A program made the translations under genes and the position numbers. Shown in pieces: positions 1,923 to 54,942 of a stretch of 64,000 nt of DNA; the first letter of the stretch is position 1; every line of letters starts with the position of its first letter. The stretch is from Planctomycetota bacterium (GTDB lineage Bacteria; Planctomycetota; UBA1135; UBA2386), in NCBI GenBank assembly GCA_965223545.1, contig OZ245006.1, positions 6,304,001-6,368,000 of the forward strand, in the 5' to 3' direction. The notes under the pieces were generated by a model. That model ran no database searches. It was given only the letters and a program-made list of their open reading frames with translations, and had not been told where the DNA came from.

Positions 1923-1928
1923 TTTGGG

Positions 1929-2230
1929 CGCGGTCGCGCGACCCGGCGTGTCGATGAGCGTGACGCGAGAGTTGATCGCGGTGAGCGGTGGGCCAGCACT
2001 GGGGAAGAACGAGCCGAGGCCTGAGTAGCTGAAGACGGTCAGGCTGTTTCGTAGCGCCGACCTCGCCGGAATTGCTCGAGGCAGAGCCCGCCCCCGGCAC
2101 GGCGAATCAGCTCGGGCTTTCCGGTAGTTGCCGGTGGGAGTGGCGAAAAAACTCAGAAAGAGGGAGACGGCCAAGCTCCAAAGACGAACTCCGATCTCCG
2201 AGCAACCAAGTCCGATTCCCCTGGAGTTCG
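1929..2230. repeat. String of intergenic hairpin modules at the left edge of island 1
   Basis: Inverted repeats by eye: cgcggtcg/tgatcgcg, gcctga/tcaggc, agagcccg/cgggcttt, cgaactcc/ggagttcg. Confidence 0.4.
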
Positions 2231-2268
2231 TAGTGTTGAGAGCATCCCCCCCTAGCAGCCCATCTGTT

Positions 2269-4506
2269 GTGAACGGTTCCGGCACGCATGCTAGATTGTC
2301 TCGAGTGGTACTAGCCGTCCTGCTATCTGGCTCAAGTCACGGCGTGTTATCAGCGCAGCATCTGCCAGGGGCAGCCCTCGAACTCGAACGCGGTATGTGG
2401 AAGACCACGTCGATTCGCGTCGGTGGACCACGCGATGCCGTCGCATCGAGTCTCACATTGGAATGCGCAATGAGCGGCAGCGAAGACGATCTCCAGGTGG
2501 ACTTCCGAGGTCAGCCCGGCACACTGTGGGGCGCGAGTATCGGGGGGAGCGAAGCTAGTGCAGCGGCTCCGGCGCAGCAAGCATCGGTAATGATCGAGCT
2601 TCCGAGACAATGGCCGAGAAACAGCGAAACCTGGCTACACATCAGTCGATCTTCATCGCCCCCGTTGCGCTACTTCCCGGATCCCTCTGCCTGGTCCGGT
2701 CCCGAGCGGATGCGGACGCTGCAGCCCGCAGTTCCGAACTGTCAAGGTAATTACCATGGTCTTGGAGCGTGGCGGGCTCAGGATGGCGATGGTGGCGATG
2801 CCAATCTGACGATTCACTACAAGTCCGTGCCGGGACAGCCACCAGAAGCTCGCTTCTGTTTCACCTGGATCTCCAGCCAAGGAATCCATTTCACTTCCCG
2901 ACCGGCCGCAGATGTCGCCCTTCCCTCCGGCGGGTGGACTCCGGATTTCCCTCCCGGATATCCGGCGACGGCCTTCAACCCGATTGCAACACTGCCCCCA
3001 ATGGGGAGCTTCCCTGGGAGCATCGCGAGTGACTGGGTGGATACTCCATTCACGCTTCAGCGGCCCGACAGCGACCAGATCTTGATTATGAACTCGGTGT
3101 TCCCCGGGACGGTGCCTGAGCTGCCATGGGTGGCTCCAGGAAGTGCCGAAGGCGCTCTCCAGCGATCGATATCGAACTCACAGGGGTTTCCCACCCAGAC
3201 GTCCCTGTGGACACGCTATCTCGGGGAGCCGACGATTGGCTCCGCCCGAAGTGTCTCGGGAGTCGAGGGTGGGTGGAACAGCGGCTACAAAGAGTCCTTC
3301 GGGGCGCAAGGCCATCATTTTGATGGGGGGATCAACGAGGCTGGTGGGGCGTTCTATGACCCCGATCTCGATGGTCCGAACAAGTACGTGTTCTTCTACG
3401 GAACCAAGGGTTCTGTGTCCGTTAACTCGGCGATTACAATTTCGTCGTTCGTGCTCACGTGGACGACAAACCCGTGTAATGCAGAGATTAGGGCGGTACT
3501 TGCAAATCCAACGAGTCAAAACCTAAGCAAGGGTGACCGTATCAATGTATCGGGAGTGCTCGATGGCGCACAGAATTTGATCCCCGAGTACAATGGGTCG
3601 CACATTATCTCCGACTTGACGGCAACGGGAGTCGGCCCCAATCGTCTCGTGCACGATGTAACCTACCTTGTTAGCTGTCCACCAACAATCGCGATCGGAA
3701 GCGCCGCAGCGTCGGCGACGATCGCACGCGCGGATATTAGATACGCGGTAGGGCGTGCGACATGCGCCGATCCATTTTCTAGCGCGGCCCCGGTCTTCAC
3801 TCGGACACCATCGACGAACTTCGTGTACGCTCCCATAGGAAAAGCTGGGTTCGGAACGTGGCCGGGTGTGCTTCACCCCTATGTGTTTCCGCACTCAAGC
3901 GGAACGTATCATATGTTAGCACTTGGTCGTTCTTCTTCGTCCGATGCGACGACGGGGATCGGGCATTGGTATTCCGAGGACAAAGGGTTGACCTGGATCT
4001 TTGACAAGGTTCTCGTTGATGTTGATTTGTTGCACCCTGTGGCACCCGCCCCGAAGAATCGGAATCCGAATACGCCAAACAAATTAGGAGAGCTCCTCTA
4101 TTTCAACAATGTTCTAGGATCGCCCAGTGGCTTGTTCCATACTGTTAACGGTATCGAGTATGTATATGTTTGTTTCGATGCCGCCGGACCCCTTTGGCCT
4201 GAGTGGAGCATCGCCTCGATCACTCGTCAGTCTGGGTCGGTGTACAAAGTCACTCTCAATCCTTATGCGCCTTGTCGTGAGTTCGTCAATGGCGATAGTG
4301 TTGTAATTGAAGGCACGATCGGGAATCAGTTCGATGGCAACTATACGGTTGGTGGGTTCAATGCAGCGGCCGCAAGTTTCTTGATTAGCGTAGCGGGCCT
4401 TCCTCCGGATCAGTTGGCCGGCGGCACCGCTTCCTACGGTCGGCAATGGGGCAGGGGAAACCCCGGCGTAGGGTTTTATGTCATGCGGGCGTCGACCGGA
4501 TTCTGA
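2269..4506 (+). CDS. Secreted hypothetical protein with Asp-box/beta-propeller-like region and two inserted small beta domains
   Basis: Long ORF (track 2128..4506); signal-peptide-like segment after GTG 2269; 'YSEDKGLTW' Asp-box; lower-GC codon usage; start uncertain. Confidence 0.6.
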   Translation: MNGSGTHARLSRVVLAVLLSGSSHGVLSAQHLPGAALELERGMWKTTSIRVGGPRDAVASSLTLECAMSGSEDDLQVDFRGQPGTLWGASIGGSEASAAAPAQQASVMIELPRQWPRNSETWLHISRSSSPPLRYFPDPSAWSGPERMRTLQPAVPNCQGNYHGLGAWRAQDGDGGDANLTIHYKSVPGQPPEARFCFTWISSQGIHFTSRPAADVALPSGGWTPDFPPGYPATAFNPIATLPPMGSFPGSIASDWVDTPFTLQRPDSDQILIMNSVFPGTVPELPWVAPGSAEGALQRSISNSQGFPTQTSLWTRYLGEPTIGSARSVSGVEGGWNSGYKESFGAQGHHFDGGINEAGGAFYDPDLDGPNKYVFFYGTKGSVSVNSAITISSFVLTWTTNPCNAEIRAVLANPTSQNLSKGDRINVSGVLDGAQNLIPEYNGSHIISDLTATGVGPNRLVHDVTYLVSCPPTIAIGSAAASATIARADIRYAVGRATCADPFSSAAPVFTRTPSTNFVYAPIGKAGFGTWPGVLHPYVFPHSSGTYHMLALGRSSSSDATTGIGHWYSEDKGLTWIFDKVLVDVDLLHPVAPAPKNRNPNTPNKLGELLYFNNVLGSPSGLFHTVNGIEYVYVCFDAAGPLWPEWSIASITRQSGSVYKVTLNPYAPCREFVNGDSVVIEGTIGNQFDGNYTVGGFNAAAASFLISVAGLPPDQLAGGTASYGRQWGRGNPGVGFYVMRASTGF

Positions 4507-42658: not shown

Positions 42659-43813
42659 TCAGCGAGCGTGGCGCGGCGGCGGCGCATCGTCGGCCGCGGC
42701 GCCGTCGATCGCGCGCTGCAGTTCGCCGCGCACGGCTGGGTCCGGTTCGCGCTCGAGGGCGGTGTGCAGCGCGCGCGCGCCGGGGTCGACGCGACCCAGT
42801 GCCCAGGCGGCGTGGCCGCGGACCACGGGGTCGGCGTCGGCCAGGGCGTTGGCCAGCGCCTCGGCCGCTCCGTCGGGACGCAGGTTGCCGAGCACGACCG
42901 CGGCGTTGCGCCGCAGCCCGCTGCGAGTCGCGCGCCGCATCGCCGTGCCCACCCAGTCCCGCTGGTATTCGTCTTCAGAGAGGGCGAGCACGTCGAGCAG
43001 GGCGTAGTCCTCGACCACGGCGTGCGGCCGTAGATCCGCTGGCGGCGTCGAAGACGGCTGCGCCGCGCGCCCCTTGCTGGTGAACGGGCACACCTCCAAG
43101 CAGATGTCGCAGCCGAACAGCCACTCGGCCTGCGCCGCCCTCAGCGGCTCGGGGATCGCTCCGCGCAGCTCGATGGTGGTGTAGCTGAGGCACTGCCGGG
43201 CGTCGACCTCGAACGGTGCGACGATGGCGCCCGTCGGGCAGGCGTCGAGACAGCGCGTGCAGGTGCCGCAGCTGCCCGCCGCGGGTGGGTCCGGCTCCAG
43301 CGCGAGCGGGGTGAGCAGCTCGGCGAGCAGCAAGTAGGGGCCATGGGTGGGCGAGATCACGCCGCTGCTCTTCGCCAGAAAGCCGATCCCGGCCCGTGCG
43401 GCGAGCGCCCGCTCGAGGACCGGCACCGCGTCGGTGCCCGCCTTGATCGTGCCGAGCGGCACGCCCTCCCGCTCCAGGGCGGTCCGCAGCCGCCGGGCGG
43501 CGCCGCCCAGCGAGCGGTGGTAGTCACGGCCCCGCGCGTAGCGTGCGATCCGGGCCCCGCCCGCCAGCTCCGCCGGCGGACCGCCGTAGTCGCGCGCCAG
43601 CGCGATCGCGCTGCGCGCCCCTGGCGCAAACGCCCGCGGATCGACGATGCGGTCCCGGTTGCGCCGCAGGTAGTCCATCTCGCCGTGCCGGCCCGCCTCG
43701 AGCCACCTGGCAAAGCGCGCGCTGTCCTCGCCCACCTCCGCGGGCCCAAAGCGCACTAGGTCAAACCCGAGGTCCGCCGCCATCGCGCGGACCTTCGCCG
43801 GAGACAGCCCCAT
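42659..43813 (-). CDS. queG: Epoxyqueuosine reductase
   Basis: 'YARGRDYH', 'PVLER', CGTCTRCLDACP, 'FGCDICLEVCP', 'RRNAAVVLGN', HEAT repeats. Confidence 0.95.
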   Translation of the reverse strand: MGLSPAKVRAMAADLGFDLVRFGPAEVGEDSARFARWLEAGRHGEMDYLRRNRDRIVDPRAFAPGARSAIALARDYGGPPAELAGGARIARYARGRDYHRSLGGAARRLRTALEREGVPLGTIKAGTDAVPVLERALAARAGIGFLAKSSGVISPTHGPYLLLAELLTPLALEPDPPAAGSCGTCTRCLDACPTGAIVAPFEVDARQCLSYTTIELRGAIPEPLRAAQAEWLFGCDICLEVCPFTSKGRAAQPSSTPPADLRPHAVVEDYALLDVLALSEDEYQRDWVGTAMRRATRSGLRRNAAVVLGNLRPDGAAEALANALADADPVVRGHAAWALGRVDPGARALHTALEREPDPAVRGELQRAIDGAAADDAPPPRHAR

Positions 43814-43822
43814 CCCCCGAAA

Positions 43823-43854
43823 GTACGGAGTCCCGCTCGATTTTCTCGCTTCGC
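43823..43854 (-). promoter_or_regulatory. Second copy of the 32-bp motif, just upstream of queG
   Basis: Reverse complement reads GCGAAGCGAGAAAATCGAGC-gg-GACTCCGTAC. Confidence 0.55.
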
Positions 43855-44049
43855 CCGCGGCCCACGTCGCGCCCGCCCCCGCGGTGCCCGCCAACCCCGT
43901 CGATACGGGAAATTCGCGGCACAATGGGGTTTCACGGCGCCGATGACCCCGCGGCTGACAGCAGCGGAGGGGTTACTACCGGTGGAACCCCAGCTATGGC
44001 AACATGGTGCCCTGGCCGGCCCCGGTGGCCGGCACGGGTCCCTTCCCCG

Positions 44050-44823
44050 ATGCAGACCCTTCCGTCCACCACCGCCAGCGACCCCGCCCTCTGCGCGCGG
44101 CTGGAGGGGGTCTGGGAGCGCACCGGGCATCCCCGCCTGCGCTGGGTCCTCGACTCGGTCGCCGCGCTGGGGGACGACGAGTGGACCGACTGGGTCTCGA
44201 CCGCGCTGATGGCGTGCTACAAGGAGACCGGGGACGCTCAGGCGTTCGCCCTGTTGTTCGAGCGCAACCGGGCGTCGTTCACGCACGCGATTCTGTCCAA
44301 GGTGCGCCGCTGTGGTGCACAGGTGGACGCCGGCGACGTGTTGCAGGAGGTGTTCCTCAACATCTACCGCTACCCGCACCGGTTCTTGCCCGAGAAGGCG
44401 GACGCGTTCCGCAACTGGGGCCACCGGATCGTCCGCAACACCCTGCTCAAGTTCCTCAAGGGCCAATCCCGGGTTGGCCGGTTCGCCTCGCTCGACGACG
44501 AAGCCGGCGATCGCGAGGACCCGAAGTCCCGTTCCCCCTACCTGTCGGCGCAGCAGGCGGAGTCCGCCGGCATCGTCGACCGGGCATATCTCATCTATCT
44601 GCACCTGTATCTGCAGCACTTCAACAGGCTGTCGGCAAAGGAGCAGCGCGCGCTCACCATGGTCGAAGTCCACGGGGCTTCCTACAAGGAGACCGCCGCC
44701 GCGCTCGGCATCCGGCTCGAGAACCTCAAGATGGTGATCTTTCGCGGCCGTCGAAAGATCTTCCGGGGTCTGAGTCGAACGCTGGATCAGCTCAACGCCG
44801 CCCTTCCGTCAGCCAACAACTAG
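44050..44823 (+). CDS. ECF sigma-70 factor
   Basis: 'DAGDVLQEVF', 'FRNWGHRIVRN', 'SYKETAAALGI...KMVIFRGR'; start uncertain. Confidence 0.85.
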   Translation: MQTLPSTTASDPALCARLEGVWERTGHPRLRWVLDSVAALGDDEWTDWVSTALMACYKETGDAQAFALLFERNRASFTHAILSKVRRCGAQVDAGDVLQEVFLNIYRYPHRFLPEKADAFRNWGHRIVRNTLLKFLKGQSRVGRFASLDDEAGDREDPKSRSPYLSAQQAESAGIVDRAYLIYLHLYLQHFNRLSAKEQRALTMVEVHGASYKETAAALGIRLENLKMVIFRGRRKIFRGLSRTLDQLNAALPSANN

Positions 44824-44839
44824 TCCTCGGTCTGTCTCG

Positions 44840-45937
44840 ATGAAGTCTCCTTTCCCGTTCTCTGGCGCGGGCGCCGGTGGTCCGCACACCGACGAGTCGC
44901 GTCGCGCGCCGCATGCGGTGGGGCGCGATGATGCGCCGTGTGAGCGGATCCAGCTCGACCTGTCGGCGATGATCGACGGTGAGTTGGACCCCTCTGCCGT
45001 GCGCCGCGTGTTGGTGCACGCGGATGCGTGTCCCGCATGCCGCGGCTTCCTCAACGGCATCCGCGGCCAGCTGCGCGCGCACCGCGCGATCGCCGGGGTC
45101 GAGCCCCGTGCGGATGGGGCAGAGTGGGATGACGGCTGGGGCGACGTGCCGGATCGCACGCATCAGATCCGCGACCGGCTGCTGCACAACCGCCGCCAGA
45201 TGGCGCGCATTTTGTACACTCTCGGTCGCAGTCACGTGCTGATGGGCACCTCGCCCGCGTTCACCCGCGAGGTGGCCGAGGAGCCGGTGCCGATCCCCGA
45301 CGTCGAGCAGCGGGGGCGGGCGCTGTTGGCCGAGCTCGAGTGCTACGGCCCCGAGGTCGAATGGGTGCCGGCCAAAGAGCTGTTCGCCTCGCACGGCGAG
45401 CGGAGCGCCAGCGACAACCTCGCGCGCGGAATGCGTCTGCTGCGCGAGGCGCTGCAACTCGATGCCGACTTGCACGAGGCGCGGATCTATCTCGGCCACG
45501 CCCTGCATATCTTCGGCGAGCGCGACGAGGCGAGGGACGAGTTCGCCCGCGTGCTGCGCCACGCCAGCGACGCGCTGGTAATCGGCTTCGCCACGATCAA
45601 CCTCGGCAATGTCTTCCTCGAGGAAGGCGATGTTGCCGCGTCGATTCCCTATTTCGAGCGCGTCGTCGAGCTCGGTCTCGTGGCGGCTGAGCCCCGGTTC
45701 TTCACGGCCTACTTCAACCTGGCGCTGGCCCACGGCTTGCTGGCCAGGTTTGATTCCGCCGAGCGGTGGTTCCACCGTCTCTACGACGAGTTCCCGCACA
45801 AGCGCCGGCTGGTGGGGATCGAGATCGGCAAGCGCCGCTTGTTGGGCGCGGCGATCGACCGGCGCGCGGGGCAGCGACAACGCTGGGCGGCCGCGTTCCC
45901 GGAGTGGTTTTCGGTTGCAGGTGAGGTGCAGCAGTGA
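44840..45937 (+). CDS. Anti-sigma factor-like protein: zf-HC2 zinc finger plus TPR repeats
   Basis: C...'LSAMIDGEL'...HxxxCxxC ('HADACPAC'); TPR helices; immediately follows the ECF gene. Confidence 0.8.
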   Translation: MKSPFPFSGAGAGGPHTDESRRAPHAVGRDDAPCERIQLDLSAMIDGELDPSAVRRVLVHADACPACRGFLNGIRGQLRAHRAIAGVEPRADGAEWDDGWGDVPDRTHQIRDRLLHNRRQMARILYTLGRSHVLMGTSPAFTREVAEEPVPIPDVEQRGRALLAELECYGPEVEWVPAKELFASHGERSASDNLARGMRLLREALQLDADLHEARIYLGHALHIFGERDEARDEFARVLRHASDALVIGFATINLGNVFLEEGDVAASIPYFERVVELGLVAAEPRFFTAYFNLALAHGLLARFDSAERWFHRLYDEFPHKRRLVGIEIGKRRLLGAAIDRRAGQRQRWAAAFPEWFSVAGEVQQ

Positions 45938-46338
45938 TGAGTGGGACCTTGTTGCGTGTGTTCGCGTTCTCGCTCGCCGCGCTGCTGTGGGGCGTCTCCG
46001 TGCCGGCGGGCGCGGGTGGCGAGGGCGGCTGGGTCGTCACGCCGCGGATGTCGTCGAGCGCGAGCCCGCGATTGTTGCAGCGCGCACCGATGGCGACTGG
46101 CCTCCGCCTCGAGCTGCCCGGCAGTGGTTGGGTGGTGGACGTCTCGATGCCCGAAGTCGGCGTCGTCGCGCGGTTCCCGGTCGAGGGGCGGCAGCTGGTG
46201 GTGCCCGGCGGCGTTCTGACCCAGCTGGCAGCGGCGGGAGTGCGCCAGTTCGAGCTGAGTGGCTTGGGCGTGGACGGCGCCGCCTGGCGGGTCCGCGTCG
46301 AGCTCGACGTCTCGGAGCTGGCGATCTCGGCGTTCTGA
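45934..46338 (+). CDS. Small secreted hypothetical protein
   Basis: Signal peptide; overlaps upstream stop codon. Confidence 0.55.
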   Translation: MMSGTLLRVFAFSLAALLWGVSVPAGAGGEGGWVVTPRMSSSASPRLLQRAPMATGLRLELPGSGWVVDVSMPEVGVVARFPVEGRQLVVPGGVLTQLAAAGVRQFELSGLGVDGAAWRVRVELDVSELAISAF

Positions 46339-46459
46339 CCGCTTGTGATCGAGAGCGGGCGGCGGTCCCGGCCATTTTGCGTGTGGTGCGCTCTGCGTCT
46401 CGCAGGGCGCGCGCTCCCTCGGCCTCTGGATCGAGAGCTCGCGGGGCCGCCCGCAGCTC

Positions 46460-48492
46460 GCCGAGTAGCCGCGGGGGGTTGCCCCCCCGCAGCTCTCACA
46501 GAACCGGACTTGTGGGTCACACATCCGGCTCTTCAGGACGGTATCCCCCAAAGGGGCCGCCAGTCGTAGCGGCGCTCGTCCCAGAGCTTGGAAAGCGACA
46601 CCAGCCGCTCAGCAAACCACTGATTGGGATAAGCGCGTTTGATCGCTCCCGAGTTGCTCTGCCACCACGTGCCACGCCGGCCAAACGCGGTGCGTGCAGC
46701 CGACTGCCAGCTGCACCCACGGGCGACAAGGTCTCGGAAGAGGTATCGCGGTCTCTTCTTCTGCCGAATGATGATCGCCCGCAGGCGTCGTCGAATATGG
46801 CCATCGAGATTCCGCAAGGTCCGCCACGCGGCCTTCGTGATCAGCTTGAAGTAGCCGATCCAACCACGGAGGTAACGGTTCAGTCGTTCGATGCACCAGG
46901 ACAGCCGACCACCCCAGGACCGCGGCGTAAGCTCACGGATTCGGGCGTCGATGCGATCCAGAGTGCGACGGGACAACTGCACCGTCAGCCAGCCCTTTCG
47001 AGTTGCGCCTACGCGAAACCCGAGGAAGTGCCGGCGATGGGCCAGGTCGACGGAACTCTTCGCTTCGTTCACTTTCAGTCGCACGCGACGTTCGATGAAC
47101 CTGCGAATCGAAGCCATGACCCGGTGTCCTGAGCGCTCGCTACCGACGTAGATATTGCAGTCGTCGGCGTAGCGCACAAAACGCAACCCGCGTCGTTCCA
47201 ACTCCCAGTCCAGTTCGTCCAGGACGATGTTGGACAGCAGAGGTGATAGCGGGCCGCCCTGGGGCGTTCCTTCTTCCGTGATGACGCGGGTGCCATCTGG
47301 AAGAACCACGTTCGCTTTCAGCATCAGGCGGATGATCCGCAGCACCCGACGGTCCTTCACCTTCTGAGCCAGCCGGTCCAGGAGGCGTTGGTGATGGACA
47401 CGGTCGAAGAACTTCTCCAAATCGATGTCCACCGTGTACCGCCGACCCTGCTTCACGTAACCCGCTGCTTCGGCGATCGCTGTGTGGGCTCCCCGCCTCG
47501 GCCGGAAGCCGTGGCTGCTGTCGTGGAACGTCGGGTCGTAGATCGGCTCCAGAATCTGGCGCACGGCCTGTTGGACCCAGCGGTCGATCACGGTTGGAAT
47601 CCCGAGACCCCGCTGCCCACCACTGGGCTTCGGGATCCACACCCGACGAATATCGCCGGGCGCGTAGGTCTCCATGAGCAGAGCATCGCGGAGTTTCGGG
47701 AGCAGGTGTTTCGCATGACGCTTGACCTCTGACACCGTCTGTCCGTCGACGCCCGGGGCGCCCTTCTTGCTTACGACATGTGCCAGTGCGCTTCGCAGGT
47801 TGCCCTGCTCCGCGACCAGCTCCAGCAGATGGCAGTAGCCGTCCGCTGGCGGCGGAGCCGATTCCGATCGATGGCTGCAATCCGTCGTAGGCACCGACGT
47901 GGACTTCGTGGCAGATTCGTCTGCCCTTCCGGCCACGCCGTCCCCTTGCGGGCTCTCGGCGAAAGCGAACTGCAGTTGCCGTGGTTTCGGCTTTCTCATC
48001 CTGTCACCCCCTTCGCTCCACCGGCATTACCCGGCTTCATCACTACTACGGGGTGATCCGACTTCTCTGCATGCCTTGGTGGGTCGTCGTTGCCTCCTCC
48101 CCACCTACCGCTCGAAGCGGACACACAGAGATCTCCCTGGGTAAGAACGCAGAGTTTCGCGCCGCCGCCGGTTCCAGTACTCCGAGGTCGCGACTGGATA
48201 TCGGGCGTCACGTTGGATGGCACGCTGACCCAGACCTCGAGAGCCTTACGGAACTTCGCTTTCGCTCGGTGCTGCGCTGCGTCTAGGGCTTCCATCCCAC
48301 ACGACCTCGCGGGAACAGCACGGCACGGTGTCCGTCCTGTTCTGGCATCCCGGATCAACACCGCGCACCGCCCTCTCGGACGGCACACGGCTCCCCTTTC
48401 TGCCTCGTGCAGCTGCCTTCGACTCATGGTTTCCTCCAGTACGGATCCATAAAGAACTTTCATCTTCAACTCTGCGCCCATGCCAGGCGCAA
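46460..48492 (-). mobile_element. Group II intron (class C-like), copy 1, 2033 nt
   Basis: 5' TTGCGCCTGGCATGGGCGCAG; DV GAGCCGGATGTG...GTCCGGTTC; DVI with bulged A; ends ...CTACTCGGC; boundaries from three-copy comparison. Confidence 0.92.
46533..47999 (-). CDS. ltrA: Group II intron reverse transcriptase/maturase (no En domain)
   Basis: 'KGAPGVDG', 'IPKPSGGQRGLGIPT', 'GTPQGGPLSPLLSN', YADD, 'LRGWIGYF'. Confidence 0.95.
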   Translation of the reverse strand: MRKPKPRQLQFAFAESPQGDGVAGRADESATKSTSVPTTDCSHRSESAPPPADGYCHLLELVAEQGNLRSALAHVVSKKGAPGVDGQTVSEVKRHAKHLLPKLRDALLMETYAPGDIRRVWIPKPSGGQRGLGIPTVIDRWVQQAVRQILEPIYDPTFHDSSHGFRPRRGAHTAIAEAAGYVKQGRRYTVDIDLEKFFDRVHHQRLLDRLAQKVKDRRVLRIIRLMLKANVVLPDGTRVITEEGTPQGGPLSPLLSNIVLDELDWELERRGLRFVRYADDCNIYVGSERSGHRVMASIRRFIERRVRLKVNEAKSSVDLAHRRHFLGFRVGATRKGWLTVQLSRRTLDRIDARIRELTPRSWGGRLSWCIERLNRYLRGWIGYFKLITKAAWRTLRNLDGHIRRRLRAIIIRQKKRPRYLFRDLVARGCSWQSAARTAFGRRGTWWQSNSGAIKRAYPNQWFAERLVSLSKLWDERRYDWRPLWGIPS

Positions 48493-48764
48493 CATCACCA
48501 TCAGCGCCGGTCCAAGACGAGGCACAGGGTGCGACCGACGCCGATGGTGACGGAGCTGCGGGCGGCGGTCCCGGTGCGTGATGGGTAGGAGTGCAGCTCG
48601 GGCGCCTGAGCCGCAGGTCGCGGACTCAAGAGCGGGTTGTTTCGTCGCGGAGTGGTGCGCACTCGCTTCAGCTCTGGAGCTGGAGGTGGTGTGAGCTCTG
48701 GGGCTCGCAGAGCGCGCGCTCCCTCGGCCTCTGGATCTAGAGCTCGCGGGGCCGCCCGCAGCTC

Positions 48765-50797
48765 GCCGAGTAGCCGCGGGGGGTTGCCCCCCCGCAGCTC
48801 TCACAGAACCGGACTTGTGGGTCACACATCCGGCTCTTCAGGACGGTATCCCCCAAAGGGGCCGCCAGTCGTAACGGCGCTCGTCCCAGAGCTTGGAAAG
48901 CGACACCAGCCGCTCAGCAAACCACTGATTGGGATAAGCGCGTTTGATCGCTCCCGAGTTGCTCTGCCACCACGTGCCACGCCGGCCAAACGCGGTGCGT
49001 GCAGCCGACTGCCAGCTGCACCCACGGGCGACAAGGTCTCGGAAGAGGTATCGCGGTCTCTTCTTCTGCCGAATGATGATCGCCCGCAGGCGTCGTCGAA
49101 TATGGCCATCGAGATTCCGCAAGGTCCGCCACGCGGCCTTCGTGATCAGCTTGAAGTAGCCGATCCAACCACGGAGGTAACGGTTCAGTCGTTCGATGCA
49201 CCAGGACAGCCGACCACCCCAGGACCGCGGCGTAAGCTCACGGATTCGGGCGTCGATGCGATCCAGAGTGCGACGGGACAACTGCACCGTCAGCCAGCCC
49301 TTTCGAGTTGCGCCTACGCGAAACCCGAGGAAGTGCCGGCGATGGGCCAGGTCGACGGAACTCTTCGCTTCGTTCACTTTCAGTCGCACGCGACGTTCGA
49401 TGAACCTGCGAATCGAAGCCATGACCCGGTGTCCTGAGCGCTCGCTACCGACGTAGATATTGCAGTCGTCGGCGTAGCGCACAAAACGCAACCCGCGTCG
49501 TTCCAACTCCCAGTCCAGTTCGTCCAGGACGATGTTGGACAGCAGAGGTGATAGCGGGCCGCCCTGGGGCGTTCCTTCTTCCGTGATGACGCGGGTGCCA
49601 TCTGGAAGAACCACGTTCGCTTTCAGCATCAGGCGGATGATCCGCAGCACCCGACGGTCCTTCACCTTCTGAGCCAGCCGGTCCAGGAGGCGTTGGTGAT
49701 GGACACGGTCGAAGAACTTCTCCAAATCGATGTCCACCGTGTACCGCCGACCCTGCTTCACGTAACCCGCTGCTTCGGCGATCGCTGTGTGGGCTCCCCG
49801 CCTCGGCCGGAAGCCGTGGCTGCTGTCGTGGAACGTCGGGTCGTAGATCGGCTCCAGAATCTGGCGCACGGCCTGTTGGACCCAGCGGTCGATCACGGTT
49901 GGAATCCCGAGACCCCGCTGCCCACCACTGGGCTTCGGGATCCACACCCGACGAATATCGCCGGGCGCGTAGGTCTCCATGAGCAGAGCATCGCGGAGTT
50001 TCGGGAGCAGGTGTTTCGCATGACGCTTGACCTCTGACACCGTCTGTCCGTCGACGCCCGGGGCGCCCTTCTTGCTTACGACATGTGCCAGTGCGCTTCG
50101 CAGGTTGCCCTGCTCCGCGACCAGCTCCAGCAGATGGCAGTAGCCGTCCGCTGGCGGCGGAGCCGATTCCGATCGATGGCTGCAATCCGTCGTAGGCACC
50201 GACGTGGACTTCGTGGCAGATTCGTCTGCCCTTCCGGCCACGCCGTCCCCTTGCGGGCTCTCGGCGAAAGCGAACTGCAGTTGCCGTGGTTTCGGCTTTC
50301 TCATCCTGTCACCCCCTTCGCTCCACCGGCATTACCCGGCTTCATCACTACTACGGGGTGATCCGACTTCTCTGCATGCCTTGGTGGGTCGTCGTTGCCT
50401 CCTCCCCACCTACCGCTCGAAGCGGACACACAGAGATCTCCCTGGGTAAGAACGCAGAGTTTCGCGCCGCCGCCGATTCCAGTACTCCGAGGTCGCGACT
50501 GGATATCGGGCGTCACGTTGGATGGCACGCTGACCCAGACCTCGAGAGCCTTACGGAACTTCGCTTTCGCTCGGTGCTGCGCTGCGTCTAGGGCTTCCAT
50601 CCCACACGACCTCGCGGGAACAGCACGGCACGGTGTCCGTCCTGTTCTGGCATCCCGGATCAACACCGCGCACCGCCCTCTCGGACGGCACACGGCTCCC
50701 CTTTCTGCCTCGTGCAGCTGCCTTCGACTCATGGTTTCCTCCAGTACGGATCCATAAAGAACTTTCATCTTCAACTCTGCGCCCATGCCAGGCGCAA
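48765..50797 (-). mobile_element. Group II intron (class C-like), copy 2, 2033 nt
   Basis: Same ends as copy 1, offset 2305 bp; SNPs at 48874 and 50476 relative to copy 1. Confidence 0.92.
48838..50304 (-). CDS. ltrA: Group II intron reverse transcriptase/maturase
   Basis: Protein identical to copy 1 in the ORF track. Confidence 0.95.
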   Translation of the reverse strand: MRKPKPRQLQFAFAESPQGDGVAGRADESATKSTSVPTTDCSHRSESAPPPADGYCHLLELVAEQGNLRSALAHVVSKKGAPGVDGQTVSEVKRHAKHLLPKLRDALLMETYAPGDIRRVWIPKPSGGQRGLGIPTVIDRWVQQAVRQILEPIYDPTFHDSSHGFRPRRGAHTAIAEAAGYVKQGRRYTVDIDLEKFFDRVHHQRLLDRLAQKVKDRRVLRIIRLMLKANVVLPDGTRVITEEGTPQGGPLSPLLSNIVLDELDWELERRGLRFVRYADDCNIYVGSERSGHRVMASIRRFIERRVRLKVNEAKSSVDLAHRRHFLGFRVGATRKGWLTVQLSRRTLDRIDARIRELTPRSWGGRLSWCIERLNRYLRGWIGYFKLITKAAWRTLRNLDGHIRRRLRAIIIRQKKRPRYLFRDLVARGCSWQSAARTAFGRRGTWWQSNSGAIKRAYPNQWFAERLVSLSKLWDERRYDWRPLWGIPS

Positions 50798-51034
50798 CAT
50801 CACCATCAGCGCCGGTCCAAGGCGAGGCACAGGGTGCGACCGACGCCGATGGTGACGGAGCTGCGGGCGGCGGTCCCGGTCGTGATGGGTAGGAGAGCAG
50901 CTCGGGCGCCTGAGCCGCAGGTCGCGGAATCAAGAGCGGGTGTTTCGTCGCGGAGTGGCGCGCACTCGCTTCAGCTCCGTCACCGTCGGCGGCGGTCGCA
51001 CCCCGTGCCTCGTCTTGGACCGCCGTCGTCGGTG

Positions 51035-53067
51035 TTGCGCCTGGCATGGGCGCAGAGTTGAAGATGAAAGTTCTTTATGGATCCGTACTGGAGGAAACCA
51101 TGAGTCGAAGGCAGCTGCACGAGGCAGAAAGGGGAGCCGTGTGCCGTCCGAGAGGGCGGTGCGCGGTGTTGATCCGGGATGCCAGAACAGGACGGACACC
51201 GTGCCGTGCTGTTCCCGCGAGGTCGTGTGGGATGGAAGCCCTAGACGCAGCGCAGCACCGAGCGAAAGCGAAGTTCCGTAAGGCTCTCGAGGTCTGGGTC
51301 AGCGTGCCATCCAACGTGACGCCCGATATCCAGTCGCGACCTCGGAGTACTGGAACCGGCGGCGGCGCGAAACTCTGCGTTCTTACCCAGGGAGATCTCT
51401 GTGTGTCCGCTTCGAGCGGTAGGTGGGGAGGAGGCAACGACGACCCACCAAGGCATGCAGAGAAGTCGGATCACCCCGTAGTAGTGATGAAGCCGGGTAA
51501 TGCCGGTGGAGCGAAGGGGGTGACAGGATGAGAAAGCCGAAACCACGGCAACTGCAGTTCGCTTTCGCCGAGAGCCCGCAAGGGGACGGCGTGGCCGGAA
51601 GGGCAGACGAATCTGCCACGAAGTCCACGTCGGTGCCTACGACGGATTGCAGCCATCGATCGGAATCGGTTCCGCCGCCAGCGGACGGCTACTGCCATCT
51701 GCTGGAGCTGGTCGCGGAGCAGGGCAACCTGCGAAGCGCACTGGCACATGTCGTAAGCAAGAAGGGCGCTCCGGGCGTCGACGGACAGACGGTGTCAGAG
51801 GTCAAGCGTCATGCGAAACACCTGCTCCCGAAACTCCGCGATGCTCTGCTCATGGAGACCTACGCGCCCGGCGATATACGTCGGGTGTGGATCCCGAAGC
51901 CCAGTGGTGGGCAGCGGGGTCTCGGGATTCCAACCGTGATCGACCGCTGGGTCCAACAGGCCGTGCGCCAGATTCTGGAGCCGATCTACGACCCGACGTT
52001 CCACGACAGCAGCCACGGCTTCCGGCCGAGGCGGGGAGCCCACACAGCGATCGCCGAAGCAGCGGGTTACGTGAAGCAGGGTCGGCGGTACACGGTGGAC
52101 ATCGATTTGGAGAAGTTCTTCGACCGTGTCCATCACCAACGCCTCCTGGACCGGCTGGCTCAGAAGGTGAAGGACCGTCGGGTGCTGCGGATCATCCGCC
52201 TGATGCTGAAAGCGAACGTGGTTCTTCCAGATGGCACCCGCGTCATCACGGAAGAAGGAACGCCCCAGGGCGGCCCGCTATCACCTCTGCTGTCCAACAT
52301 CGTCCTGGACGAACTGGACTGGGAGTTGGAACGACGCGGGTTGCGTTTTGTGCGCTACGCCGACGACTGCAATATCTACGTCGGTAGCGAGCGCTCAGGA
52401 CACCGGGTCATGGCTTCGATTCGCAGGTTCATCGAACGTCGCGTGCGACTGAAAGTGAACGAAGCGAAGAGTTCCGTCGACCTGGCCCATCGCCGGCACT
52501 TCCTCGGGTTTCGCGTAGGCGCAACTCGAAAGGGCTGGCTGACGGTGCAGTTGTCCCGTCGCACTCTGGATCGCATCGACGCCCGAATCCGTGAGCTTAC
52601 GCCGCGGTCCTGGGGTGGTCGGCTGTCCTGGTGCATCGAACGACTGAACCGTTACCTCCGTGGTTGGATCGGCTACTTCAAGCTGATCACGAAGGCCGCG
52701 TGGCGGACCTTGCGGAATCTCGATGGCCATATTCGACGACGCCTGCGGGCGATCATCATTCGGCAGAAGAAGAGACCGCGATACCTCTTCCGAGACCTTG
52801 TCGCCCGTGGGTGCAGCTGGCAGTCGGCTGCACGCACCGCGTTTGGCCGGCGTGGCACGTGGTGGCAGAGCAACTCGGGAGCGATCAAACGCGCTTATCC
52901 CAATCAGTGGTTTGCTGAGCGGCTGGTGTCGCTTTCCAAGCTCTGGGACGAGCGCCGCTACGACTGGCGGCCCCTTTGGGGGATACCGTCCTGAAGAGCC
53001 GGATGTGTGACCCACAAGTCCGGTTCTGTGAGAGCTGCGGGGGGGCAACCCCCCGCGGCTACTCGGC
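51035..53067 (+). mobile_element. Group II intron (class C-like), copy 3, 2033 nt, inverted
   Basis: TTGCG at 51035; DV 52996-53026; ends CTACTCGGC at 53067; SNPs at 51670, 51770 and 51878. Confidence 0.92.
51528..52994 (+). CDS. ltrA: Group II intron reverse transcriptase/maturase
   Basis: One amino-acid difference (ESAPP to ESVPP) from copies 1 and 2. Confidence 0.95.
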   Translation: MRKPKPRQLQFAFAESPQGDGVAGRADESATKSTSVPTTDCSHRSESVPPPADGYCHLLELVAEQGNLRSALAHVVSKKGAPGVDGQTVSEVKRHAKHLLPKLRDALLMETYAPGDIRRVWIPKPSGGQRGLGIPTVIDRWVQQAVRQILEPIYDPTFHDSSHGFRPRRGAHTAIAEAAGYVKQGRRYTVDIDLEKFFDRVHHQRLLDRLAQKVKDRRVLRIIRLMLKANVVLPDGTRVITEEGTPQGGPLSPLLSNIVLDELDWELERRGLRFVRYADDCNIYVGSERSGHRVMASIRRFIERRVRLKVNEAKSSVDLAHRRHFLGFRVGATRKGWLTVQLSRRTLDRIDARIRELTPRSWGGRLSWCIERLNRYLRGWIGYFKLITKAAWRTLRNLDGHIRRRLRAIIIRQKKRPRYLFRDLVARGCSWQSAARTAFGRRGTWWQSNSGAIKRAYPNQWFAERLVSLSKLWDERRYDWRPLWGIPS

Positions 53068-53307
53068 ACGGTGCTGAGGCGAGCCTTCAGCTCTGGAGCT
53101 GGAGGTGGTGTGAGCTCTGCGTTTCGCAGGGCGCGCGCTCCATCGGCCTCTGGATCGTGAGCGGGCGGTGGTCACGGTCCTCGGAGCTTGGGGGTTTGGC
53201 TTGGACTGAACGGAGAAAAAACGTGCGAACTGCTGACAGGTTTCACGAGTTTCCTTTTGTCGGATTCTTGCATGCTGACTCGCTCTCTAGTAAGGTCGCT
53301 AATTCAA

Positions 53308-54006
53308 ATGACGAGCAAGACGGTTGGGGCGCGGTGCGGGGGACGACGCCGTGGGGTGGTGCAGGGCGAGCTGCCGTTTCGGCAGTGGGGTGGGGCTCGG
53401 GAGGGGGCTGGGCGGCCCAAGGTGAGTGACGAGACGGTGCCGCACTTGGCGCGGGGGGCGTTGGTGGCGCGGTATCCGTTGCACTTGACGGTGCGGTTGT
53501 GTCGGGGGTTGCCGGGCTTACGGAATGCGCGGACGTACTGGATGTTGGTGGAGCGGATCCGGGCGGGGTGTGGGCGGTTCGGGTTTCGGTTGGTGGAGTT
53601 CTCGGTGCAGCGTGATCACTTGCACCTCTTGGTCGAGGCGAAGGATCGGGAGGCGTTGACGCGGGGGATGACCGGGCTGTTGGTGCGGATGGCGCGGGGG
53701 TTGAACAAGTTGTGGGGGCGCTCGGGGCGGGTGTTTGCCGAGCGGTTTCACGAGCGGGTGCTGCGCTCGCCGACGGAGGTGCGGCGGGCGTTGGTGTATG
53801 TGCTGCAGAATGCCTGGCACCACCGGCAGCGGCCGCGGCAGTTGATCGACGTCTACTCGTCGGGGCCTTGGTTCGACGGGTGGCGCGAGGTGGTGGAGTT
53901 GTCGGAGCCGGTGGTGCGGCCGACGGTGCGGGCGCGAACGTGGCTGCTCAAGGGAGGGTGGCGGCGGTCGCGGGGACGGTTGGACTTCCGCGAGCGGCCG
54001 GCGTAG
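53308..54006 (+). CDS. RAYT-like (Y1 HUH, IS200-superfamily) tyrosine transposase
   Basis: 'LHLTVR', HUH motif 'DHLHLLVE', 'VFAERFH', catalytic Tyr in 'ALVYVLQN', 'YSS'; adjacent hairpin array; no tnpB. Confidence 0.85.
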   Translation: MTSKTVGARCGGRRRGVVQGELPFRQWGGAREGAGRPKVSDETVPHLARGALVARYPLHLTVRLCRGLPGLRNARTYWMLVERIRAGCGRFGFRLVEFSVQRDHLHLLVEAKDREALTRGMTGLLVRMARGLNKLWGRSGRVFAERFHERVLRSPTEVRRALVYVLQNAWHHRQRPRQLIDVYSSGPWFDGWREVVELSEPVVRPTVRARTWLLKGGWRRSRGRLDFRERPA

Positions 54007-54075
54007 CCGGTGGATTGCTAATGCAGGAGTCGACTCGGGCAGGGGGGCGGTTGCCGACGTCCAGGGCCGACTGGC

Positions 54076-54942
54076 CTAACGGCGCAGCGAGCCCGCCTCG
54101 ATCAGCGCGCGCATGCGCGCCGGCACGTTGGTCGTCACCATGTCCAAGCCCAGCGCGCCGGTGCCCAGCAGGTGGAGGTCGGCGTTCACGGTGTAGACGC
54201 AGACCGGATAGTCGTGGGCGTGAAAGCGTGCGACGTCGTCTGCGGTGATCGCCGTGGCGTTCCAGTGGACGAAGCTCGCGCCGGTCGCGGCAATCTCGGC
54301 CAGCATTCCATCGCGCCATGGGTCGTCGCACAGCGCGCCCAAGGTCAGCCGCGGCTCGAGCGCGTGGACTTCCTGCAGCCACTGCCAGTCGAAGGCCTGC
54401 ACCAGGACGTCCTCGAGGTGGCCGGAAGCGCGGAGCATCTCGACCAGGCCGTGGGCGCTTCCCGCCTTGCGCTCGATCATCGTCGTGCCGCGCGGCTGGA
54501 TCAGATCGAGCGCTTCCTGCAGGGTGGGGATCTTGGCGCCCGCATGCTCCGCGCCCTTCCAGGCGCCGGCGTCCAGAGTCGTGAGGGTCGCCAGGGAGAG
54601 TTGCGCCACCGCGGCATCGGCGCCCAACCGCCGCTCGGCGTCGGTGGTGCGGGCGACGGTGGCGTCGTGGATGCAGACCCACTCGCCGTCCGCCGTCTCG
54701 CGCACGTCGAGCTCGATCATCTCGGCGCCGGCATCCAGGGCGGCGGTGAACGCCGGCAGTGTGTTCTCCGGCAGCCGCTGGCTGGCTCCGCGGTGGCCGA
54801 CGGTGACCGGGTGGGTTGCCCACAGCCGGCGCAGGTCGTCGAGCAGGGCAGACTCGCGTGCGGCGTGCGGCGCCATCTTGCAGGCCATCGGAGCTGCGCA
54901 TAGCAGCAGAGCCAGGCCGAGGACCACGGGAATGGAGAGCAT
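54076..54942 (-). CDS. Glycerophosphodiester phosphodiesterase
   Basis: 'GHRGAS...PENT', 'IELDV', 'HD', 'IPTLQE', 'YTVN'. Confidence 0.9.
   Translation of the reverse strand: MLSIPVVLGLALLLCAAPMACKMAPHAARESALLDDLRRLWATHPVTVGHRGASQRLPENTLPAFTAALDAGAEMIELDVRETADGEWVCIHDATVARTTDAERRLGADAAVAQLSLATLTTLDAGAWKGAEHAGAKIPTLQEALDLIQPRGTTMIERKAGSAHGLVEMLRASGHLEDVLVQAFDWQWLQEVHALEPRLTLGALCDDPWRDGMLAEIAATGASFVHWNATAITADDVARFHAHDYPVCVYTVNADLHLLGTGALGLDMVTTNVPARMRALIEAGSLRR

What the first reader, a model, noticed from the sequence alone, without database searches (positions are those of the whole stretch)
46347..54006. RAYT plus modular REP-like array colonised three times by a group IIC intron that targets one hairpin module
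Seen: removing the three 2033-nt introns leaves about 735 nt of tandem hairpin modules running up to a Y1-HUH transposase gene. Every intron interrupts the 3' arm of the same hairpin family (module B). Rejoined sites form long stems: 46446-46459 + 48493-48566 (88 nt), 48751-48764 + 50798-50871 (88 nt), and, inverted, 50965-51034 + 53068-53083 (86 nt). Intron orientation follows hairpin orientation. Established: IIC introns lack En and insert 3' of DNA stem-loops such as terminators and attC sites; RAYTs act on REP hairpins in ssDNA. Inference: an intron lineage specialised on RAYT-associated hairpins (a REP-array analogue of IIC-attC introns), which may exploit RAYT-spread targets or couple an RT to array remodelling.
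Basis: partly seen in the sequence, partly recalled or inferred. Interest (0 to 1): 0.9.

Follow-up and report, generated by a model that had tools for sequence, protein, structure and literature searches.

The report
Intron burst into mobile-element hairpins
A mobile self-splicing intron has recently copied itself 14 times in this genome, almost always into one long DNA hairpin carried by a multi-copy transposase element, which extends the known hairpin-seeking habit of such introns to a new kind of landing site.

Summary
The genome has 14 near-identical 2,033-nt introns. Of these, 13 sit in the 3' arm of module B on one strand: 11 in arrays upstream of an HUH-Y1 gene, 2 in an ISL3 end. Module B is filled at 13 of 26 copies, against 0 of 46 other long hairpins with the same G[AG]TG|R motif.

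The intron lacks En and works like class C (4-nt EBS1, short domain V). It has an AGC triad and falls in a clade sister to the class C proteins sampled.

The HUH gene is not a textbook RAYT: 12 intact copies at 92-97% identity, multi-copy in relatives, no GTAG foot. Module B is conserved beside it in two other genera, but also rides in ISL3 ends and MITEs.

Lineage-wide specialisation on RAYT hairpins is not supported: no relative of this intron was found near a Y1 gene. Array units are older than the introns, so no RT-driven remodelling is seen. A different intron class sits in the leader of the same HUH family in two other genomes.

Verdict: new variant of a known kind; interest 0.5.

The parts
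46347..53180 (+). Modular hairpin array in the leader of the HUH element (735 nt without introns); unit order F-A-(B reversed)-C-D-E-(B forward), with B optional at both positions
46446..48566 (-). Module B copy 1 (46446-46459 + 48493-48566), 88 nt, 38 pairs, split by intron 1
46460..48492 (-). Group II intron copy 1 (2,033 nt); IEP at 46533-47999
48751..50871 (-). Module B copy 2 (48751-48764 + 50798-50871), split by intron 2
48765..50797 (-). Group II intron copy 2; IEP at 48838-50304; different haplotype from copy 1
50965..53083 (+). Module B copy 3 (50965-51034 + 53068-53083), 86 nt, split by intron 3 three nt earlier than the usual register
51035..53067 (+). Group II intron copy 3
51308..51311 (+). 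EBS1 (CAUC), pairs with G[AG]TG at the end of the 5' exon
   Evidence: 3-4 bp EBS1/IBS1 pairing at the aligned position in 8 of 8 clade introns aligned
51528..52994 (+). Intron-encoded RT/maturase, 488 aa, YADD, no endonuclease domain
52996..53067 (+). Domain V (31 nt, AGC triad, short distal stem) and domain VI
46416..46432 (+). Module A core (also 48721-48737 and 53140-53156); travels with B in other genomes
48616..48629 (+). Module D (also 50920-50933); resembles the sequence just before the HUH start codon (53294-53307)
48667..48685 (+). Module F short hairpin (also 53086-53104)
53308..54006 (+). HUH-Y1 transposase-like gene, 232 aa; H104, H106 and Y164 invariant in 35 of 35 homologs; one of 12 intact copies
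54012..54059 (+). About 50 nt shared (80-84%) with the downstream flanks of two other HUH copies; at one of them it is the 3' end of a long convergent ORF, so probably flank carried along by the element (inferred)

Best explanation
Two layers. Older layer: a multi-copy, self-spreading HUH-Y1 element whose leader is an array of hairpin modules that expanded locally by tandem duplication. Younger layer: one En-minus, class-C-like group II intron that entered recently and retrohomed about 13 times. Its RNP most likely docks on the upper 10-12 bp of the module B stem when that strand is single-stranded at the fork. EBS1 (CAUC) pairs with G[AG]TG 14-20 nt down the 3' arm, the RNA reverse-splices before a purine, and a nascent DNA strand primes reverse transcription. 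Module B is a preferred, harmless, intergenic target in this host; the HUH protein is probably not required. Shown here: copy numbers, sites, strand, register, EBS1 covariation, relative ages. Inferred from known class C biology: stem recognition by the protein, single-stranded substrate, priming. Unexplained: why B is chosen over other long hairpins with the same motif.
For: 13 of 14 introns in module B, 14 of 14 at G[AG]TG|R. Filled 13 of 26 B strands against 0 of 46 other >=20-bp hairpin strands with the motif, Fisher p 1.5e-7. Registers of 20 nt (8 sites), 17 nt (4) and 14 nt (1) from the top of the stem fit the ~12-bp stem + spacer + 4-nt IBS1 geometry (PMC10190682). No insertion on the opposite strand of any of the 26 copies, although in the three window copies folded it carries a like motif and a weaker stem. 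Introns are 99.4-100% identical and HUH genes 92.1-97.4%. A shared array segment is 92.6% alike within loci and 76.4% between loci. A B variant inside an ISL3 end, with no HUH gene in cis, was also hit. One copy sits in a coding sequence with only a weak stem. Clade relatives use varied hairpins, including a 79-nt tandem array hit twice in G061.
Against: A generic rule does not predict the specificity: 2,921 of 98,618 motif sites have a >=12-bp stem, and the real sites rank only 622nd to 2,769th among them by folding energy. Many of those sites lie in genes, where selection may have removed insertions; I had no gene calls to correct for this. IBS1 is paired in the full hairpin, so the lower stem must melt. 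The bias to the lagging-strand template is weak (9 of 13 against 4 of 13, p 0.12). EBS3 could not be assigned. A different intron class sits in the leader of this HUH family in G040 and G047, which hints that the element itself favours insertion.
Confidence: 0.62

Rival explanations
1. HUH-assisted homing: the HUH protein binds or nicks the array, extruding the hairpin or leaving a 3'-OH that primes the En-minus RT, so introns are drawn to this element.
For: Specificity exceeds the stem + IBS1 rule. 11 of 14 copies lie in HUH leaders. Another intron class is in HUH leaders in 2 other genomes. 4 of 13 B insertions are on the leading-strand template. Relaxase nicking is reported to stimulate retrotransposition (PMC7306698 passage).
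Against: The ISL3-borne B was hit without an HUH gene in cis (action in trans is not excluded). G061 and G365 have clade introns and no homolog of this HUH. No biochemical data.
Confidence: 0.15
2. Survivor bias: the intron inserts broadly at stem + G[AG]TG|R sites and only insertions in dispensable arrays survive.
For: One insertion in a coding sequence shows relaxed targeting is possible. Many of the 2,921 candidate sites appear to be in genes (not counted).
Against: A dispersed palindrome family (29 loci) with GATG|A in long stems is never hit. The opposite strand of B, at the same loci, is never hit.
Confidence: 0.13
3. One reading: a dedicated intron lineage specialised on RAYT-associated hairpins, perhaps remodelling arrays by reverse transcription.
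For: Strong association in this genome. The nearest relatives are only 73% and 58% identical and lack a 5' flank, so a narrow specialised sub-lineage cannot be excluded.
Against: An HUH profile over 254 intron loci hit no AGC-clade locus outside this genome (many flanks are short). 0 of 16 clade introns in five whole genomes lie within 70 kb of a Y1 gene on the same contig. Window units 1 and 2 differ at 7 places in ~240 nt while their introns differ at 2 in 2,033. The longest array has 5 B copies and 1 intron.
Confidence: 0.1

Closest known systems
Group IIC-attC introns (e.g. S.ma.I2; PMC3001079, PMC7923331 passages)
   Same: En-minus; insert into a long imperfect stem-loop of a repeated element, on one strand only, using a 4-nt IBS1 plus IBS3; several copies per array.
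   Different: Target is not an attC site; IBS is G[AG]TG|R, not TTGT|T; triad AGC; specialisation is not shown to be lineage-wide.
Class C / IIC terminator-seeking introns (B.h.I1, GsI-IIC, E. rectale IIC; PMC1702495, PMC10190682 passages)
   Same: Best solved-structure match is GsI-IIC RT (E 2.8e-119); short domain V, short EBS1, stem-loop 5' exon.
   Different: AGC instead of CGC; sister clade in the tree; first base U and penultimate G; no T-run terminator at the target.
REPtrons (RAYT / TnpA-REP with REP/BIME; PMC6006769, PMC5581495, PMC8266576 passages)
   Same: HUH + Tyr core; predicted fold closest to E. coli TnpA-REP 4ER8 (E 5.2e-5, TM 0.52/0.70); modular inverted hairpins in tandem next to the gene.
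   Different: 12 intact copies at 92-97% identity (up to 47 matches in a relative); no GT[AG]G foot; 70-90-nt hairpins confined to the element and ISL3; Y motif YVLQN; below the NF047646 cut-off.
REP-targeting mobile elements (ISPpu9/10, ISPa11, IS1397; PMC1525189 table)
   Same: A mobile element using another element's palindromes as landing pads; that table also lists 2 of 9 P. putida KT2440 group II introns in REPs.
   Different: Here 13 of 14 copies, by a retroelement, at a fixed register and strand.
IS200/IS605 TnpA elements (IS608, ISDra2)
   Same: Multi-copy HUH-Y1 gene with neighbouring hairpins; next-best fold matches.
   Different: Copies far less identical than the 99.4% reported for IS200; no fixed left end; longer protein; no TnpB seen.

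Membership tests
Group IIC / class C intron | IEP of class C type without En domain | tested here: met
   RVT_1 + GIIM only; TIGR04416 373 bits; GsI-IIC best PDB hit
Group IIC / class C intron | IEP falls inside the class C clade | tested here: inconclusive
   With other intron RTs as outgroup, the AGC clade (SH-aLRT 99) is sister to sampled class C (83), joint branch 100. A first tree rooted on one distant RT nested it. No AU test; class C sample is BLAST-best hits only.
Group IIC / class C intron | CGC catalytic triad | tested here: not met
   AGC in the query and in 21 of 22 other clade loci; the 22nd had no domain V in the stretch read
Group IIC / class C intron | Domain V with shortened distal stem | tested here: met
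   31 nt, 3-nt gap against RF00029
Group IIC / class C intron | 3-4 bp EBS1-IBS1, stem-loop in place of IBS2 | tested here: met
   EBS1 covariation in 8 of 8 aligned; >=10-bp stem upstream at 13 of 14 sites; exon positions -5 to -12 vary among sites. Absence of EBS2 judged by eye only.
Group IIC / class C intron | EBS3-IBS3 pair | tested here: inconclusive
   +1 base is G at 12 and A at 2 of 14 sites; no covarying EBS3 column found
Group IIC / class C intron | Insertion after an intrinsic terminator | tested here: not met
   0 terminator-like sites in 46200-54200
IIC-attC lineage | Insertion at TTGT/T of an attC bottom strand | tested here: not met
   Sites are G[AG]TG|R in module B
RAYT / TnpA-REP REPtron | HUH motif and catalytic Tyr, TnpA-Y1 fold | tested here: met
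   H104, H106, Y164 invariant in 35 of 35; model pLDDT 83.7, best hit 4ER8
RAYT / TnpA-REP REPtron | Single-copy, non-duplicating gene | tested here: not met
   12 full copies + 1 truncated; 13-47 matches in five relatives
RAYT / TnpA-REP REPtron | GT[AG]G-footed REPs dispersed genome-wide | tested here: not met
   No such foot at the three window B copies; 18 module clusters, 13 of them at HUH genes
RAYT / TnpA-REP REPtron | Curated family score | tested here: not met
   NF047646 35.3 bits, cut-off 80
RAYT / TnpA-REP REPtron | Protein cleaves its hairpin in ssDNA | not testable with these tools
   Only indirect: A+B conserved beside the gene in G011 (2 of 2 loci) and G017
TnpA-Y1 subclasses of Quentin et al. 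2018 | Match to a subclass profile | not tested
   Profiles and supplements not read; YVLQN differs from the tabulated Y---NP and Y---Q signatures

The most novel reading that the evidence does not exclude
A multi-copy HUH element not described in the papers searched acts as an active beacon for group II introns: its protein exposes or nicks the leader hairpins and so supplies the single strand, and possibly the primer, that En-minus introns lack. This would explain why two unrelated intron classes in three genomes sit in its leader.
Probability: 0.15. Interest if true: 0.8.

Novelty: new variant of a known kind. Interest (0 to 1): 0.5.

Why it matters
It gives a clean natural data set for a standing question: what, beyond four base pairs and a stem, makes a class-C-type intron choose its target. 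One genome holds 26 copies of the target (half filled), an unused opposite strand and an unused look-alike palindrome family as controls. It points to a third landing class beside terminators and attC sites: long hairpins carried by other mobile elements, one of which (ISL3) then moved with the intron inside. It also flags two poorly described groups: an AGC-triad sister lineage of class C, and a multi-copy HUH-Y1 family with traits between IS200 and RAYT.

Tried and rejected
Tandem duplication of unit + intron as the origin of window copies 1 and 2: rejected. Units differ at 7 places in ~240 nt, and both alleles that separate copy 2 from copy 1 occur in introns at other loci.

Assembly artefact: unlikely; depth ratio about 15, and contigs from two other studies carry intron-module junctions.

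Module B as a known RNA: no Rfam match above gathering score in 10 loci.

An extra 8-nt complementarity between intron domain I and the B junction: seen by eye, about chance level by a rough estimate, and absent from the ISL3 variant; dropped.

C|T cleavage at the HUH right end: all 12 copies have AG at or just after the stop codon, but 7 are TAG stops, so this is weak.

Sequence search of solved structures with the HUH protein: 0 hits. Promoter scan: 0 sites. Expression: no RNA holder listed, which is no evidence either way. Regexes missed the 5' end of several relatives and mislabelled 7 CGC loci and L047; I corrected these by eye. L300 and L308 were dropped from the final tree as bad ORFs and 11 more rows were thinned. 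One search timed out and was rerun. Look-ups of earlier findings by sequence and place were empty.
Full report
1. Observation. The three introns, the 735-nt remainder and the 88/88/86-nt rejoined hairpins are as described. Boundaries were fixed by comparing filled with empty sites. The intron starts TTGCG and ends CGGC rather than GUGYG...AY. The same paired change (first U, penultimate G) is seen in L130 and L236 of the same clade and in G785's unrelated intron.

2. Genome-wide picture. The 8.07-Mb contig (70% GC) holds 14 full-length copies and no fragments, 99.4-100% identical, with 16 variable columns. It also holds 12 intact copies and 1 truncated copy of the HUH gene, 92.1-97.4% identical in DNA, with 88 synonymous and 21 non-synonymous codon variants. 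Module sequences form 18 clusters: 13 directly upstream of an HUH gene, 3 in the left end of an ISL3-like element, 1 solitary diverged copy and 1 short hit in what looks like coding sequence. Eleven introns lie in 8 HUH arrays, 2 in ISL3 and 1 in a sulfatase-like ORF (name from my reading of the translation). The two ISL3-borne introns are identical, their hosts share 3 SNPs against the empty ISL3, and each has its own 8-bp target duplication. That is one insertion later moved by ISL3, so there were at most 13 events.

3. Specificity. An anchor scan gave 29 hits. I dropped 2 unrelated hits and 1 diverged copy, leaving 26 module-B hairpins: 13 filled, 13 empty. All 14 sites read G[AG]TG|R. Of 585 hairpin strands with >=20 bp, 72 carry that motif 12-24 nt down the 3' arm: 13 of 26 B strands are filled, 0 of 46 others (p 1.5e-7; 1.2e-6 counting 11 events). 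The unused set includes 7 strands of a dispersed palindrome family (29 loci) whose end sequences appear, by eye, beside two other Y1 genes, so the intron is not a general seeker of Y1-associated hairpins. That family offers A at +1 whereas 12 of 14 real sites have G, which may explain part of the difference. No copy is on the opposite strand of B. By a looser rule 2,921 of 98,618 motif sites have a >=12-bp stem and the real sites are not the most stable; this null is not corrected for coding sequence. With the origin near 4.0 Mb (GC skew), 9 of 13 B copies on the lagging-strand template and 4 of 13 on the other are filled (p 0.12).

4. The intron. The protein has RT and maturase domains only and is closest to GsI-IIC RT among solved structures. 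Domain V is short but has AGC; class C is defined with CGC (PMC1702495). The query and 22 database loci form a clade with support 1.0. With other intron RTs as outgroup this clade is sister to the class C proteins sampled (FastTree 0.98/0.97, IQ-TREE SH-aLRT 99/83, joint 100). A first tree with one distant root nested it, so the position is likely but not settled. EBS1 is CAUC at intron nt 274-277; the aligned loop pairs with the last 3-4 exon bases in 8 of 8 introns aligned. It works like a IIC intron but fails one defining feature.

5. Relatives of the intron. They are sparse: 4 of 401 genomes of the phylum and 7 of 301 of another class at E <= 1e-122 (in these wide searches only 3-5 candidates per genome were scored). 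G061 has 11 copies after short hairpins in several palindromic repeats, two of them in consecutive units of a 79-nt tandem array, and no Y1 gene was found there. In G365, G637, G465 and G640 the 5 copies are not within 70 kb of a Y1 gene on the same contig. An HUH profile over 254 intron loci (with duplicates, many on short contigs) hit no AGC-clade locus outside this genome. The nearest relative (73%) lacks its 5' flank.

6. The HUH element. Homologs occur in 20 of 61 related genomes, counting this one, often in many copies (47, 28, 19, 14, 13 matches). The fold is closest to TnpA-REP, then ISDra2 and IS608. It fails the single-copy, GTAG-foot and dispersed-REP features of RAYTs (PMC5581495, PMC8266576, PMC6006769). 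Left ends are ragged, similarity stops at the stop codon, and 3 copies share ~50 nt of downstream flank, which suggests imprecise single-strand transposition (inference). Arrays expanded locally: a shared segment is 92.6% alike within loci (11 pairs) and 76.4% between loci (80 pairs). Modules A+B lie upstream of the gene in G011 (75% over 120 nt at the best locus, 2 of 2 loci) and on both sides in G017. They also lie in ISL3 left ends (G760, G017, G774) and, by eye, between ISL3-type repeats in G769 and G012. G032 has B-like hits and no HUH match. In 12 hand-picked copies the stem keeps 31 pairs, 15 with changes on both sides; selection by a hairpin pattern favours this result. B is therefore tied to the HUH family but not exclusive to it.

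7. Order of events. HUH spread first, arrays then grew in place, and the intron came last. Window units 1 and 2 differ at 7 places in ~240 nt while their introns differ at 2 in 2,033, and both alleles occur elsewhere. Nothing links the RT to array growth.

8. Convergence. In G040 the only group II RT found, from another class (RF02005, 35% to ours), is inserted in a hairpin of the leader of an HUH gene of this family; in G047 a member of that class is likewise about 200 nt upstream of one. The same class in G785 has 9 copies, and 6 of 6 checked sit at one site of a REP-like doublet, with no such HUH in that genome. Two cases are suggestive, not a test.

9. Literature. IIC introns are known to insert after terminators, after other inverted repeats and into attC stems (PMC4424553, PMC1702495, PMC3001079, PMC7923331, PMC10190682, PMC7306698, PMC12584367: matched passages only). 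PMC1525189 tabulates 2 of 9 P. putida introns in REPs (one table row seen). PMC6006769: abstract, parts 2-4 of section 3 and passages. PMC5581495, PMC8266576, PMC3733652, PMC3552965: passages. Eight searches showed no paper on an AGC sister lineage of class C, on this HUH family, or on near-complete targeting of such arrays. The library lacks most subscription papers; Michel et al. 2007 and the Leon and Roy 2009 papers were seen only as references, and no supplements were read. Earlier AI notes of this scan report similar introns in REPs in other genomes; they are unchecked leads.

10. Verdict. Real and sharper than first reported, but a host-level target preference of a class-C-like intron for a hairpin carried by mobile elements, not a demonstrated RAYT-specialised lineage. 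New variant of a known kind; interest 0.5.

Noticed in passing
L286 (G040:C1 ~610,570-612,610) and L330 (G047:C79 ~1244-3268): A different group II intron class (RF02005 type) is inserted antisense in the leader of an HUH gene of the same family in two genomes.
   Followed up: partly
L321-L326 (G785): Nine copies of that other intron class; the six checked all sit at one site of a REP-like doublet.
   Followed up: partly
G000:C1 2,606,900-2,608,500; 3,672,900-3,676,400; 5,060,100-5,063,600: ISL3-like element carrying modules A+B in its left end; it transposed with the intron inside.
   Followed up: yes
G000:C1, 29 loci e.g. 1,404,868 and 5,081,200; Y1 genes at 1,729,907 and 3,914,571: Second, dispersed long-palindrome family with end sequences beside two longer Y1 genes (YIDHNP motif), resembling TIR/TIRYT families; never hit by the intron.
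   Followed up: partly
window 53294-53307, 48616-48629, 50920-50933: Module D resembles the sequence before the HUH start; a related AATCAAG motif lies within 500 nt upstream of 10 of 35 homologs examined. Possible binding site.
   Followed up: partly
window ~53268-53296: Two hexamers 17 nt apart stay similar across HUH copies while the spacer varies; promoter-like by eye, below the scan threshold.
   Followed up: no
G000:C1 1,355,549-1,357,582 and 6,127,148-6,129,181: Two intron copies share a one-base insertion near the end of the IEP gene, extending the frame, plus several SNPs; the variant exists at two loci.
   Followed up: partly
L205 and L210 (G061:C8): A clade relative inserted in two consecutive units of a 79-nt tandem hairpin array.
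   Followed up: partly
L253, L254 (G017), L255 (G040): HUH genes flanked by inverted hairpin modules on both sides and often duplicated in tandem.
   Followed up: partly
window 43543-46338: Sigma-factor-like ORF (my reading), a zinc-finger anti-sigma/TPR gene and a 134-aa orphan lie just upstream and could read into the array.
   Followed up: no
G000:C1 4,530,834-4,531,541: One other, distant reverse transcriptase (37% over 238 aa).
   Followed up: no
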